A program made the position numbers. This document shows, piece by piece, positions 9,001 to 64,000 of a DNA stretch of 64,000 bases (the first letter of the stretch is position 1; every line of letters begins with the position of its first letter). The DNA comes from Carcharhinus amblyrhynchos (lineage: Eukaryota): NCBI GenBank assembly GCA_965287045.1, contig OZ336876.1, forward strand, positions 50,282,001 to 50,346,000, read 5' to 3'.

Positions 9001-12000
9001 CCCAATTGTGCAAAGAATCAGTATGACCGTGACTGGAATTGGAGAATCATGGCATAGGGTTCAAGCAGGTATGGGCAGATAGGTATTATTGAGGTATCCA
9101 AAGTGTTTGACTGATCTCCCACTAACCCTGCAAGGTCTGGTGGGGCTGGAGGATACCACAGGGCACAATCCAGTTGTAACTACAGGCATAATGATGAATG
9201 ATCATAATGAATGACAGAGCAGGCTTTAGGGGCCAAATGGCCTACTCTTCTCCTATTTTCTTTGTTTCAACAATGGTCTGAAAAATTTCACGGTCAATAA
9301 AAATTTTCTACAATTAAAGAAATACAAGGTTACAACACCATCAGACATTGACATTACTCTCTGACAGTTCCACAAAGGTACATAATGGTTACATTTTGCA
9401 TGCTTATCAAAAACCCTTTACTGCACACAATGAGAAAAGGCCACATTTAATAACATATGGAAATTAATATTTGACCAAATATTACAACCAAAGAAAACAT
9501 GAACAAAAAAATTATATCAGAGAGCATTTTTGCAAAACTTTTGCAATGATTACATGCTTATTAGTTTGATAAATTCCAATTAACTACATTGAATACATTG
9601 CTACTTCAAGGTGTTAAACAAATCCTTTAGCAATGGGTTCACTGTAATGTCCTTTAAAGAAACCCTAGCAACAAGGCTGAAAATTTACATGTCTTCCCAC
9701 AATTCCAAAGAAAGGAACCTCTGTGTTGAGAGAGATTTTCAAAGCATGAGTGAAATACAATTCGTTTTGAAGTGTTAAATGACATCAATACATTTTGCAC
9801 GTGTTCAACTCTCACAGCCAAATAGATCAATGGTGAATTTATTCCGTGTTGAAGTTTTTTTTGTCAATAGGGAGTGGGAAAAATTCTGCATTTATCACAT
9901 CAGGCCTCAGATGCTGATTCAGATGGTGCCTAACTTTGACCTGAAACATCATCTCCTTTACCACAGTGTAGTTGCACATAACCTGCAGTATTGAACAACA
10001 GAATGCTGCAAATTCAATGTGCAATAATTTGCATTTTTTTGCTGCTACATTTCACTGAGGTCAATAACGTTTGGATTCAATCCTTGCATGCATTATTAGT
10101 GTGTGTGCAAATAGCTTGGGCAGACGAAAGATCATCTTTACTCCAAATTTCACAGTGTTGAAGTATGACATTTGCACAGCTTTTGTGTAGTTTGACACTT
10201 AGTTCAGACCTTCCTCAGAATGGAATGCAAACACCCAGCTATTTGGCTGAAAGTATTCATTTTCTGGCATTGTGCGTTCAGGGAGAAGTCTTACTAGCAA
10301 TTAGAAATTTTGTCTCATGGTACTCGATTTTCCAACCTTTTGGAGGAATAACTGAAAAATCAAGAGCGGTGTGCACTGGCATTTTGTATTGTCATATTGG
10401 TATTCAAAGCTCCTTATCGTTACTGAAAAGTCTGAAAATTAATTCTAAAATACAATGGCCGTAAGTCAAATGAAGTCATTCTTTTCATTTAACCATTATA
10501 CACTAGGTATTCAGTTCCACAGTTCCCTGAATGTGGCAACACAAGTAGACATGGTGGTCAAGAAGAGATATGGATTGCTTGCCTTCATCATTCAGGGCAC
10601 AGATGTAAAAATTAGCAAATCATGTGCAACTGTATAGAACTTTAGTTAGGCCAAATTTGGAATACTGCATACAGTTCTGATCACCACACTATCATAAGGG
10701 TGTTTAGACTTTGGAGGGAGTACAGAAAAGGTTTGGAAGGTGTTAGCTATGAGGAGAAGTTGGACAAACTTTGCTTGTATTCACTTGAAGATCAGAGGCT
10801 GAGGGCGGCCTGATAAAATTTACAAAATCATCAGAGGCATGGATAGAATGAATATTCGGAGTCTTTCTCCCAGGGTAGAAGTATCAATTACAAGGGAACA
10901 TAGGTTTAAGGAGGAAGTTTAAAGGAGATGTGTGAGGCAAGTTTTTTTTAAACTGAGTGTGCGGTAAGTGCCTGGAATGCGCTGTCAAAGGAGGTGGTAG
11001 AAGCAAATACAATGGCAATGTTTAACAGGCATCTTGACAGATAAATGAATAGCAGTCATGATGTGGATATACCGGCGTTGGACTGGGGTAAACACAGTAA
11101 AAAGTCTGACAACACCAGGTTTAAGTCCAACCGATTTATTTGATAGTACACTCACTAGATTTCGGGTTAGTTATTCACCTGACGAAGGGACTAACCCGAA
11201 AGCTAGTGAGTGTACTATCAAATAAATCGGTTGGACTTAAACCTGGTGTTGTCAGACTTTTTACTAGATAAATGAATAGGCAGGGATAGGGGGATGTGGA
11301 CTGTGTGGAAGCAAAAGGTCTTTAGTTTTTCAAGACATCATGTGTTGGTGCAGGCTTGGTAGACAGAAGGACCTGTTCCTGTGCATTCTGTTCTTTGTTC
11401 AACCAAAATGAGTATAATTCACCTGTGGCATTCAGCTGCTAAAAATACACACACTTTCTCTGCAGCTCAATGTGCACTGTCTGAATACACAAGGTATACA
11501 AGGTAAACTCTCTTAAACAAGTGGGTTTTGACTTTAGTAATCACTACATGACAATCAAGTTGCCCAGTATTCATAAGATTGTTGCTTTGTTAGTTGACAT
11601 AAAATTGAAGCCAGCATTGGAGGTAACCCAAATAGATCTGGATATGAGTGTGAATGAAGTCAAATCAACTCTTCAAAATAAATCCTCAATCTTATAACCA
11701 AAACAATCATTCTCAAAGTTCTTCTGTTCTGACAGATTTTGGTGGCTTTAAATTGGTTTACAGGTTCAGAAAAAGATGATGCAACAAGAATCATTTTGTA
11801 CAAATATGTTGTGTTTTTTCAGTAACATCAGCTACGTTAGAACCACACAATTGTCTTTAGAGAAAATACTTCAAGATGGATCTGAAAGAATCCATTGTTA
11901 TATAGGTTTATTTTCACACTGTTCATTTATTTGCACTTATTTATTTATTCTGAGACCAGAAGACACTTTTTAAACAATAAACTTGTTGTTGCTACAGTGG

Positions 12001-63000: not shown

Positions 63001-64000
63001 GTGTTTGATTATATTCGCGGATAATATTTAACTTTCCAGTTTCCCACCACTTTTCCAGTTTCACGACCAAAACAACTTGAAGTCAACAATTTTTTTTAAG
63101 TGCATTCAAACCTCTTTATTACAAACCTGTGAGGATCAACAAAGTAGTTCTTCTTATCAGGATCTGATGTGGAGTTTTGAGCACCTTTACAGAGCTTCCA
63201 CTTCGAAGCAGGGGCAGAATATAATTACCTCTGTCATCGTGGCTCGGCTGGATTTCGCTTCACTCATTCCCTTCAACACGACGGCAATTATGCACTGTGA
63301 TTATTTCCACTAATTTAACTGCTGACAGAATATTTACTGCCAGCACTTTTTAGGAAGGCTGAATGTCAAGATTAGTGAGATAAACAACAGATCACACGAT
63401 AATTTCAGATTTTACAACTTCTAAGAGATGCATTACTATAGTTAAAAACAAATTACTGCGGATGATGGAACTTAGAACAGAAACAGAAAATACTGGAAAA
63501 TCTCAACAGGTCTGACGAAAGGGGGGGGGGGTCATTGAAACGTTGGCTCAATTATCTCACCATAGATGCAGTCAGGCCTGCTGAGATTTTCTAGCATTTT
63601 CTGGTTTTGTATTATAAAATGTCTTCTCTAGCACAATAACCAATTCTAATTTTAGAAATGTTACATAAATCAAAGTTACCATAGAGATTCTTGAATCTAA
63701 ATCACAAATCCGTTTTATGGTAATCAGTGTGTTCCTGTTAAAGGATATTAAATGCCAGAGCAATATAGACTATATGTTGACACCATCAGCCATTCACTCA
63801 AAATCGATTAAATATATTTAAACCGCTTGACCAAAGTATAACAATGAAAACAGAAAATGCTGGAAAATCTCAGCAAATCTGACAGCATCTGTGGAGAGAG
63901 AACAGAACCAACGTTTCGAGTTTGGATGACTCTTCCTGCTCTGAGGAAGGGTCATCTAGACTCGAAACGTTGGCTCAATTCTCACTCTATAGATGTCAGA

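What the first reader, a model, noticed from the sequence alone, without database searches (positions are those of the whole stretch)
11172..63973. Inversion points of short fold-back elements cluster on the ribozyme: a possible non-autonomous ribozyme-centred retroelement class
Seen: in four short copies from two unrelated families (11172-11189, 18926-18930, ~63512, 63938-63943) the sense arm begins at or within a few nt of the stem I/CTGANGA segment. Each is joined to an inverted copy of the downstream sequence. Random 5' truncation would not be expected to hit the same small window repeatedly. Inference: either reverse transcription stalls or switches template at the folded hammerhead, or these 150-220-bp hairpins propagate as their own SINE/retrozyme-like units using the PLE enzyme. 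This is the best candidate for an undescribed system in the window, but it rests on only four copies.
[Added by the scan's program, not by the reader: the finding's places include an assembly gap (unread letters, written N; its length is only estimated) at 60298 to 60397. Whether the letters on both sides are continuous or in frame is not known: test that first.]
Basis: partly seen in the sequence, partly recalled or inferred. Interest (0 to 1): 0.72.

Follow-up and report, generated by a model that had tools for sequence, protein, structure and literature searches.

The report
Head-to-head Penelope-type ribozyme repeat stubs
These short hairpin repeats in a shark or ray genome look like ordinary head-to-head stubs of Penelope-like retrotransposons, and they meet at the ribozyme probably because the copied unit starts there.

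Summary
All four places are inverted repeats whose sense arm starts 0-7 nt from the CTGANGA box of a minimal hammerhead motif.

[quoted passage not shown] - outer ends in two discrete classes 31-39 nt apart, the "tail", with exactly one tail in each of the 4 fold-backs whose two ends are visible;
- target-site duplications around the whole fold-back in 3 of those 4 (PMC3846280, PMC8557442, PMC11167929).

A fifth fold-back (26781-27523) has its junction 257 nt upstream of the motif. Two family-B copies with no inverted arm also lose family homology at CTGA. So the boundary seems to belong to the unit, not to the inversion.

Best reading: ORF-less 95-140-nt PLE end units, reverse-transcribed from both nicked target strands and joined where the template ends. 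No two junctions are identical, so nothing here shows the hairpin spreading as a unit. Ribozyme-bearing non-autonomous PLE derivatives are already in print.

Limits: 8 evaluable insertions, one 64-kb window, no PLE gene in it, and no genome-wide census was possible.

The parts
1..130 (+). A1: family-A copy cut by the window start. It begins inside the CTGGCGA core and has a long (tailed) 3' end.
11042..11058 (.). Left target-site duplication of A2 (AGATAAATGAATAGCAG).
   Evidence: the empty site is shown by paralogous host-repeat copies at 30780-31010 and 7150-7380
11059..11171 (-). A2 inverted arm. Its inner end is at +11, in the helix II loop. It carries the extra 37-nt tail (11059-11095).
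11172..11265 (+). A2 sense arm. It holds the complete minimal hammerhead (stem I 11172-11178, CTGACGA 11179-11185, helix II, GAAA, AGCT palindrome). It has a short 3' end with no tail. Positions 11172-11189 are the unique spacer.
   Evidence: minimum-energy fold = stem I + stem II, z = -2.7
11266..11283 (.). Right target-site duplication of A2 (AGATAAATGAATAGGCAG).
18779..18792 (.). Left target-site duplication of B1 (CTCAGAATTATTGG).
   Evidence: 14 nt, 2 mismatches against 19023-19036
18793..18924 (-). B1 inverted arm. Its inner end is at +8, the base of helix II. It has the long (tailed) outer end.
18924..19022 (+). B1 sense arm. It starts at the decayed core CTGAAGA (spacer 18925-18931) and has the short outer end.
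19023..19036 (.). Right target-site duplication of B1 (CTCAGATTTACTGG).
19148..19275 (-). B2: simple family-B copy with no inverted arm. Family homology ends at the decayed CTGATCC (19275). It has the long 3' end.
26641..26755 (-). B6: simple family-B copy with no inverted arm. Family homology ends at the decayed CTGATAA (26755). It has the long 3' end. A3 inserted about 25 nt upstream of it.
26781..27131 (-). A3 left arm. Hammerhead core at 26874-26849. Short outer end.
27132..27137 (.). A3 spacer GACGGT. The junction is 257 nt upstream of the hammerhead core, which makes this the counter-example.
27138..27523 (+). A3 right arm. Hammerhead core at 27395-27420. TATATG at 27359 lies 30 nt upstream of A27389 in CCATTCAC. 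The outer end is tailed (about 27489-27523). The TSD ATTGGCTCGTT at 26769-26779 and 27520-27530 overlaps the tail end by 4 ambiguous nt.
47845..47943 (-). B3: simple family-B copy, 5'-truncated downstream of the hammerhead. Long 3' end.
63443..63516 (-). B4 inverted arm. Its inner end is at +59. It is joined through the 5-nt overlap CTGAC. Long (tailed) outer end.
63512..63616 (+). B4 sense arm, starting at CTGACGA. Helix II is replaced by a G run. Short outer end.
63845..63937 (-). B5 inverted arm. Its inner end is at +3. Short outer end.
63938..64000 (+). B5 sense arm. Spacer GCTCTG at 63938-63943, core CTGAGGA at 63941. It is cut by the end of the window.
60298..60397 (.). Assembly gap. It is not part of any element. 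The 16 nt before it recur directly after it.

Best explanation
Families A and B are ORF-less 3'-terminal units of Penelope-like retroelements in an elasmobranch genome. Each unit is about 95 nt long, or about 135 nt with the tail. Each has a minimal hammerhead core at its 5' end and the reverse-transcription entry region at its 3' end.

Each fold-back looks like one integration event (inferred). Both nicked target strands prime reverse transcription of such RNA, one from the proximal and one from the distal internal start site, which gives one tail per fold-back. The two cDNAs then meet head to head. [quoted passage not shown] The other is 3-59 nt shorter and is joined to it by a template jump or by end joining with 0-5 nt of overlap.

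The junctions cluster on the ribozyme because the copied RNA begins at or a few nt before stem I/CUGA. In family A this may be a transcription start 30 nt downstream of a TATA-like box. The ribozyme fold need not act on the enzyme.

Shown: the anatomy, the TSDs, the two end classes, the boundary shared by simple and fold-back copies, and the exclusion of simple snap-back.

Inferred: the PLE enzyme, priming from both strands in vivo, the nature of the RNA 5' end, and the joining step.
For: 1. PLE signature. All 13 visible outer ends fall into two classes per family, 31-39 nt apart. Each of the 4 fold-backs with both ends visible has exactly one tail. TSDs of 17-18, 7-11 and 14 bp enclose the whole fold-back in A2, A3 and B1, which is 3 of those 4; none was found for B4. 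These match the published PLE structure (PMC3846280 and PMC8557442, passages read). The tail matches the stretch between the two internal start sites of the anole PLE, whose enzyme cleaves and extends both strands (PMC11167929, main text read).

2. Minimal-hammerhead features of PMC4209133 are present: the CUGANGA and GAAA boxes, an extra A between positions 9 and 10.1, the G10.1-C11.1 pair, and a palindromic AGCU or ACGU in place of helix III. The minimum-energy fold of the A2 and A3 motifs is stem I plus stem II.

3. The boundary is a property of the unit. In family B, 5 of 6 copies lose family homology within about 5 nt of CTGA: 3 fold-backs and 2 simple copies. The upstream flanks of the two simple copies share nothing (124 of 300 and 90 of 300 shuffles score as well). 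One copy is truncated further downstream.

4. Simple snap-back is excluded. In A2, B1 and B4 the tail is on the arm that is incomplete at the junction, and the unique spacer is on the other arm. Neither strand could therefore be templated by itself, so two RNA-templated syntheses are needed.

5. In A3, TATATG lies 30 nt upstream of the A of CCATTCAC, which is where the A2 sense arm starts within 1 nt. In Drosophila virilis Penelope the hammerhead also lies near the RNA 5' end. The transcription start is 46 nt upstream of an intron (PMC2377424), and that intron ends at helix I (PMC4209133).
Against: - No PLE gene is in the window. Pfam on 49 of the 51 ORFs of 90 aa or more (the two overlapping the gap were left out) found only one reverse-transcriptase fragment, and its relatives carry an AP-type endonuclease, so it is LINE-like. 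The PLE link rests on structure alone.
- Rfam hammerhead models do not match.
- Family-B units begin at the core with at most 3 bp of stem I, and the B5 motif does not fold as a hammerhead.
- Only 8 evaluable insertions, from one 64-kb window. B4 and B5 lie about 230 nt apart and may not be independent.
- The 5' limits of the old copies B2 and B6 rest on absence of detectable similarity, and no TSDs were found for B2, B3, B4 or B6.
- A3 shows that longer family-A templates exist.
- The TATA/initiator reading rests on one locus and was made after the fact.
- In B5 the arm that is incomplete at the junction has the short end, so the pattern 'tail on the incomplete arm' (3 of 3) may not be general.
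- In vitro the anole enzyme showed no strand difference in start site (PMC11167929), so one tail per fold-back (4 of 4, P<=0.06) is not explained by that work.
Confidence: 0.55

Rival explanations
1. Reverse transcription stalls or switches template at the folded hammerhead. On this view the ribozyme structure, or protein bound to it, makes the enzyme leave the RNA there and continue on the other cDNA.
For: Inner ends of both arms cluster in the 5' half of the motif. Sense arms start at -7 to +5. Three of the 4 inverted arms end at +3, +8 and +11, in or next to helix II. The anole PLE hammerhead is protein-assisted, so protein sits near it (PMC11167929).
Against: The sense arms contain the whole motif and end at its 5' edge, whereas a fold should block at its 3' side. 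A3 reads 257 nt past the motif. Simple copies B2 and B6 end at the same place without any switch. In vitro, shorter templates gave shorter products and hammerhead mutants did not change product size (PMC11167929).
Confidence: 0.15
2. The 150-230-bp hairpins are their own SINE-like or retrozyme-like units, transcribed and retrotransposed as whole hairpins by a PLE enzyme.
For: Family B is dense: 6 copies in 64 kb, half of them fold-backs. In the stretch right after the ribozyme (from GAAACG to TCAG), the sense arm of B5 is slightly closer to the sense arm of B4 (31 of 36) than to its own partner arm (about 77%; 48 of 60 over the whole arm). The arms of B1, B4 and B5 are only 69-85% alike, unlike the 99% in A2 and A3.
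Against: The five fold-backs have five different junctions. B1 and B5 differ by a 9-nt stretch, and B4 is joined at a different place in the inverted arm. All left-arm outer ends sit at the canonical long or short start class, where whole-hairpin copying should give variable 5' ends. B4 and B5 are adjacent, so local conversion could explain their likeness. There are no tandem arrays as in retrozymes.
Confidence: 0.15
3. The clustering comes from chance plus ascertainment. The motif lies 93-140 nt from the 3' end, so any short fold-back recognised by its hammerhead must have its junction near it.
For: Copies truncated downstream of it (B3) carry no motif and were not listed. The fifth fold-back, A3, does not fit. 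There are only 3-4 independent events, and the window was chosen after seeing the data.
Against: A profile search that does not depend on the motif found all copies. In family B, 5 of 6 still end within about 5 nt of CTGA, and none ends between +12 and +44 or upstream of -7. The corrected P is about 1e-3 to 1e-2.
Confidence: 0.1
4. The palindromes arose at the DNA level after insertion, or are assembly artefacts such as fold-back reads.
For: The arms of A2 and A3 are 99% identical with 18-nt and 6-nt spacers, as artefactual palindromes are.
Against: TSDs enclose the whole structure in A2, A3 and B1, and the empty site of A2 is seen in paralogous repeats. The arms are asymmetric in a regular way, with the tail on one side and the spacer on the other. 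The old fold-backs B1, B4 and B5 have diverged arms.
Confidence: 0.05

Closest known systems
PLE insertion architecture: inverted pseudo-LTR plus optional tail (Arkhipova et al. 2013, PMC3846280; Craig et al. 2021, PMC8557442; passages read)
   Same: A head-to-head inverted 5'-truncated copy. A 30-40-bp tail on one end only. A TSD of variable length around the whole insert. Short spacers or palindromes at the inverted junction. ORF-less pseudo-LTR-only structures are also described.
   Different: No ORF-bearing parent is visible here. The units are only 95-140 nt, against 180-220-bp pseudo-LTRs in Adineta. The inner boundary coincides with the 5' edge of the hammerhead; I did not find that stated in the passages I read.
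Minimal dimeric hammerheads of metazoan PLEs (Cervera and De la Pena 2014, PMC4209133; parts 1-2 of 4 read)
   Same: The CUGANGA and GAAA boxes, an extra nucleotide before helix II, the G10.1-C11.1 pair, a palindrome in place of helix III, and a short helix I. Most occur as single dispersed motifs. Pairs on opposite strands 100-700 bp apart were noted in Schistosoma.
   Different: Helix II here is 3-5 bp, against 7-8 bp in the Schistosoma families. Family-B units start at the core and lack most of helix I. Activity was not tested.
In vitro mobilisation of the anole PLE PAc (Frangieh et al. 2024, PMC11167929; main text read)
   Same: Both DNA strands are cleaved and extended. There are two adjacent internal start sites, and the stretch between them equals the genomic tail. 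The hammerhead lies about 85-90 nt upstream of the start site; here the predicted cut site lies 60-72 nt (short end) or about 95-105 nt (long end) upstream of the arm ends.
   Different: That paper describes no fold-back products or junction positions and saw no strand bias in start site. Here every complete fold-back has one short and one long end.
Non-LTR retrozymes (Cervera and De la Pena 2020, PMC7229834, passages; Li et al. 2026 preprint 10.64898/2026.07.22.740005, abstract, results and discussion)
   Same: Short non-coding units with a type I hammerhead, proposed to be non-autonomous derivatives of PLE pseudo-LTRs. Monomers are dispersed in vertebrate genomes, including one chondrichthyan.
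   Different: Retrozymes are defined by direct tandem repeats and circular RNA. Here there are no tandem arrays, and the arrangement is inverted.
5' inversions of LINE-1 by twin priming (recalled, no call)
   Same: Both target strands prime reverse transcription in one event, which produces an inversion junction with microhomology.
   Different: Twin priming inverts a different, upstream part of one RNA. Here both arms are the same 3'-terminal sequence, each starting at an internal start site.

Membership tests
Penelope-like element (insertion products) | [quoted passage not shown] | tested here: not met
   Pfam on 49 of the 51 ORFs of 90 aa or more (the two overlapping the gap were left out) found one RVT_1 fragment (52612-53124). 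Its relatives carry an AP-type endonuclease, so it is LINE-like. The A3 arms give no Pfam match. A parent elsewhere in the genome could not be searched for.
Penelope-like element (insertion products) | Optional 30-40-bp tail, often at one end only | tested here: met
   Two end classes 31-39 nt apart in both families (13 of 13 visible ends). There is one tail in each of the 4 fold-backs with both ends visible.
Penelope-like element (insertion products) | Adjacent inverted 5'-truncated copy (head to head), with a TSD around the whole insert | tested here: met
   Five fold-backs. TSDs in A2, A3 and B1; none found for B4; B5 is cut by the window end.
Penelope-like element (insertion products) | Hammerhead motif in the terminal repeat | tested here: met
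   Core boxes and helix II in A1-A3 and B5; decayed in B1, B2, B4 and B6.
Hammerhead ribozyme (Rfam families) | Score at or above gathering for an Rfam hammerhead model | tested here: not met
   No hammerhead hit at gathering or at E<=10. Only sub-threshold miRNA-like hits on the fold-backs.
Minimal PLE hammerhead (Cervera and De la Pena 2014) | CUGANGA and GAAA boxes, extra nucleotide between 9 and 10.1, G10.1-C11.1 pair, palindromic 15.2-16.2, helices I and II | tested here: met
   Met in full for family A. In family B all are met except helix I, which has at most 3 bp.
Minimal PLE hammerhead (Cervera and De la Pena 2014) | Self-cleavage (as a dimer or with protein) | not testable with these tools
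   Needs an in vitro transcription and cleavage assay.
Non-LTR retrozyme | Direct tandem repeats of the hammerhead unit | tested here: not met
   The self-comparison and Tandem Repeats Finder show no tandem A or B units in this window.
Non-LTR retrozyme | Expressed as small linear and circular RNA | not testable with these tools
   No RNA data at hand.
   The 5 fold-backs have 5 different junctions. Only this window could be examined.

The most novel reading that the evidence does not exclude
The 5' edge of the minimal hammerhead may be the defined 5' terminus of a minimal PLE-mobilised RNA of 95-140 nt, with the ribozyme core as its head and the reverse-transcription entry site as its tail. 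On this reading that RNA, rather than random truncation of full elements, is the main amplifying unit in elasmobranch genomes, a true SINE-like lineage. Its fold-backs would be in vivo footprints of reverse transcription primed from both target strands, with a fixed division of labour: one strand uses the proximal start site and the other the distal one.
Probability: 0.25. Interest if true: 0.55.

Novelty: new member of a known kind. Interest (0 to 1): 0.33.

Why it matters
If the reading holds, these loci are natural products of PLE integration that record three things. Both target strands prime cDNA synthesis, which has so far been reported only in vitro for one anole element. The two internal start sites are used one per strand. 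The copied RNA starts at the ribozyme.

That would give PLE specialists a simple genomic read-out for a poorly understood transposition cycle. It would also warn annotators that such fold-backs can look like miRNA hairpins.

It does not open a new class of element.

Tried and rejected
- Rfam at gathering score and at E<=10 gave no hammerhead family. It gave only sub-threshold miRNA-like hits on the fold-backs.
- No PLE gene turned up in the window. The one reverse-transcriptase fragment is LINE-like, and the A3 arms have no Pfam match.
- TSD searches for B2, B3, B4 and B6 found nothing convincing.
- The upstream flanks of B2 and B6 share no sequence above shuffled controls.
- I considered that B4 and B5 descend from one hairpin master. 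The shared states in the sense arms are few and mixed, and the two copies are adjacent, so I left this open as a rival.
- Simple snap-back self-priming was rejected for A2, B1 and B4, because the tail and the spacer lie on different arms.
- A type III hammerhead spanning both arms of B5 was rejected by inspection of the sequence, because no helix I can be drawn.
- Tandem or retrozyme organisation was rejected.
- The regex hits at 23590, 34763, 46888 and 52031 were treated as chance. They have no helix II and do not belong to either family.
- Literature searches for fold-back or solo pseudo-LTR descriptions, and for sharks, found nothing that states the junction sits at the hammerhead. Subscription papers, for example Evgen'ev and Arkhipova 2005 and Arkhipova 2006, are not in the library.
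The supplementary figures of PMC4209133 and PMC11167929 may show such ends.
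Full report
**Host and context**

The window is 64 kb with one gap of 100 N at 60298-60397. I do not take it for human. 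The only reverse-transcriptase ORF (52612-53124) has its best named relatives in sharks and rays (Scyliorhinus, Chiloscyllium, Stegostoma, Hemiscyllium, Hypanus, Mobula). Those relatives carry an AP-type endonuclease, so the ORF belongs to a LINE and not to a Penelope-like element.

The gap is flanked on both sides by the same 16 nt. It lies more than 3 kb from every element discussed here. Nothing below depends on it, and I did not fill it.

**Check of the observation**

All four places are inverted repeats. With the C of CTGANGA as position 0:

| Copy | Sense arm starts | Inverted arm ends | Spacer or joint |
|---|---|---|---|
| A2 | -7/-6 (11172/3) | +11 | 18 nt, 11172-11189 |
| B1 | 0/+1 (18924/5) | +8 | 18925-18931 |
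| B4 | 0 to +5 (63512-63517) | +59 | 5-nt overlap CTGAC |
| B5 | -4/-3 (63937/8) | +3 | 63938-63943 |

- The strict pattern CTGANGA-N(8-22)-CGAAA occurs 5 times against 0.19 expected. It covers the cores at 11179, 26874, 27395 and 63941, plus one apparent chance hit at 52031.
- The decayed cores at 18924 and 63512 do not match that strict pattern.
- Rfam finds no hammerhead family, even at E<=10.
- The motifs do fit the 'minimal' hammerhead described for PLEs. They have both core boxes, an extra A before helix II, the G10.1-C11.1 pair, and AGCT or ACGT in place of helix III (PMC4209133, parts 1-2 read).
- The family-A motifs fold as stem I plus stem II at minimum energy. The B5 motif does not, because at most 3 bp of stem I are present.
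- The two families share nothing outside the core.

**All copies in the window**

A self-comparison and family profiles give 3 family-A loci and 6 family-B loci.

- Family A: A1 (1-130, cut by the window start), A2, and A3.
- A3 is a fifth fold-back: 26781-27131 / 27138-27523, with 356-nt arms, 1 internal mismatch and the spacer GACGGT.
- Family B: fold-backs B1, B4 and B5, and simple copies B2 (19148-19275, minus), B3 (47845-47943, minus) and B6 (26641-26755, minus).
- In A3 the core lies 257 nt from the junction.

**PLE signature**

- Aligned in sense orientation, all 13 visible outer ends fall into two discrete classes per family, 31-39 nt apart.
- Each of the 4 fold-backs with both ends visible (A2, A3, B1, B4) has one short and one long end.
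- TSDs enclose the whole fold-back in three of them:
  - A2: 17-18 bp, with the empty site visible in two paralogous host-repeat copies;
  - A3: 7-11 bp;
  - B1: 14 bp with 2 mismatches.
- No TSD was found for B4.

This is the published picture of PLE insertions: an inverted 5'-truncated copy adjacent at the 5' end, a 30-40-bp tail often at one end only, TSDs around the whole unit, and palindromes at the inverted junction (PMC3846280 and PMC8557442, passages read).

For the anole element PAc, the purified protein cleaves and extends both strands. It also starts reverse transcription at two adjacent internal sites, and the stretch between them equals the tail (PMC11167929, main text read). There the hammerhead cut site lies about 85-90 nt upstream of the start site. 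Here the predicted cut sites lie 60-72 nt from the short ends and about 95-105 nt from the long ends.

**Why the junctions sit at the ribozyme**

Three results point away from the ribozyme fold acting on the enzyme.

1. The sense arms contain the whole motif and stop at its 5' edge. A structural block should act on the 3' side, which the enzyme meets first.
2. A3 reads through the motif. In vitro, PAc copies to the end of the template, and hammerhead mutants do not change product size (PMC11167929).
3. The two simple family-B copies that reach the motif (B2, B6) also lose family homology at CTGA. Their upstream flanks share nothing above shuffled controls.

So 5 of 6 family-B copies end within about 5 nt of CTGA, with or without an inverted arm. 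No family-B copy in the window shows sequence upstream of it. The simplest reading is that the copied RNA begins there.

In family A, the one copy with upstream sequence has TATATG exactly 30 nt upstream of the A in CCATTCAC. That is within 1 nt of where the A2 sense arm starts. This suggests a transcription start, but it rests on one locus and was noticed after the fact.

A hammerhead close to the RNA 5' end is not unusual for this class. In Drosophila virilis Penelope the start site lies 46 nt before a 75-bp intron (PMC2377424). That intron ends at helix I (PMC4209133).

**How the fold-backs form**

In A2, B1 and B4 the tail is on the arm that is incomplete at the junction. The unique spacer is on the other arm. 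Neither DNA strand can therefore be a copy of itself. This rules out simple snap-back self-priming and requires two separate RNA-templated syntheses, one from the distal and one from the proximal start site.

That fits priming from both target strands. The joining step may be a template jump from the end of the RNA onto the other cDNA, or end joining with 0-5 nt of overlap. It is inferred, not shown.

B5 may break the pattern 'tail on the incomplete arm': its incomplete arm has the short end, and its other arm is cut by the window edge.

**The hairpin-as-unit idea**

- The five fold-backs have five different junctions.
- Left-arm outer ends sit at the canonical end classes. Copying of a whole hairpin RNA should give variable 5' ends instead.
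- Against this, the arms of B1, B4 and B5 are only 69-85% alike.
- In the stretch right after the ribozyme, the B5 sense arm is slightly closer to the B4 sense arm (31 of 36) than to its own partner arm (about 77% there; 48 of 60 over the whole arm).
- B4 and B5 lie about 230 nt apart, so age and local conversion are enough to explain that likeness.

This rival stays open at low probability.

**Statistics and limits**

A crude uniform-truncation null, corrected for the choice of window, gives about 1e-3 for 4 of 5 fold-backs. It gives about 1e-2 if B4 and B5 count as one event. One tail in each of 4 of 4 fold-backs has P<=0.06 under independent choice.

The sample is 8 evaluable insertions from one window. 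The PLE assignment is structural only. No genome-wide census, RNA data or parent element could be examined.

**Comparison with what is known**

The architecture is a known PLE feature. Opposite-strand pairs of minimal hammerheads 100-700 bp apart were reported in 2014 (PMC4209133). Non-autonomous hammerhead units derived from PLE repeats are in print as non-LTR retrozymes (PMC7229834, passages; preprint 10.64898/2026.07.22.740005, abstract, results and discussion). Those are tandem arrays, which are absent here.

In seven literature searches and the texts I read, I did not find two statements:
- that the inverted junction, and the 5' end of the short units, coincides with the 5' edge of the hammerhead;
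- that the two arms use different start sites.

Subscription papers and all supplementary files were out of reach, so this absence is weak.

**Verdict**

This is a new member of a known kind. It has modest interest as a possible in vivo footprint of both-strand priming by PLEs.

Noticed in passing
window 5158-5223 (SINE copy continues to about 5509): A perfect 30-nt inverted duplication with a 6-nt spacer sits at the 5' end of a SINE-like repeat (head GGGCAGCATGGTGGCACAGTGG; other copies near 22404, 42888 minus and 51120). The palindrome includes 10 nt not seen in the other copies. So a fold-back at a repeat's 5' end also occurs in a family without a hammerhead.
   Followed up: partly
window 60282-60413: The 16 nt before the assembly gap (gcgttgcaggcagtgg) recur directly after it, as if two contig ends overlapped. 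I did not fill it or examine it further.
   Followed up: partly
window 26641-27530 and 63443-64000: PLE-type units are nested or adjacent. A3 inserted about 25 nt from the 5' end of B6, and B4 and B5 lie about 230 nt apart. This may reflect insertion near earlier copies.
   Followed up: no
window 27078-27191, 63890-63991, 63490-63597, 5161-5220: The fold-backs give sub-threshold Rfam matches to miRNA precursor models (mir-607 at 64.7 bits against a gathering score of 94, mir-3923, mir-216, MIR2600). Such repeats could be mistaken for miRNA hairpins.
   Followed up: no
window 52612-53124 and 53080-53129: A LINE-type reverse-transcriptase fragment (RVT_1, E = 2e-12; relatives carry an AP endonuclease). 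A 23-nt palindrome (96% complementary, 4-nt spacer) sits at its 3' end.
   Followed up: partly
window 34046-34275 and 34556-34785: A large inverted repeat with 230-nt arms (81% identity) about 280 nt apart. It belongs to neither family and its nature is unknown.
   Followed up: no
window 59057-60543: A stretch with many overlapping open frames of 100-211 aa on both strands, and a 28-nt tandem repeat (59706-59827, 4.4 copies). No Pfam match.
   Followed up: no
window 63519-63531 and 27780-27820: Long G runs. One replaces helix II of the B4 hammerhead. The other is a (GGGGT)n-like tract downstream of A3.
   Followed up: no
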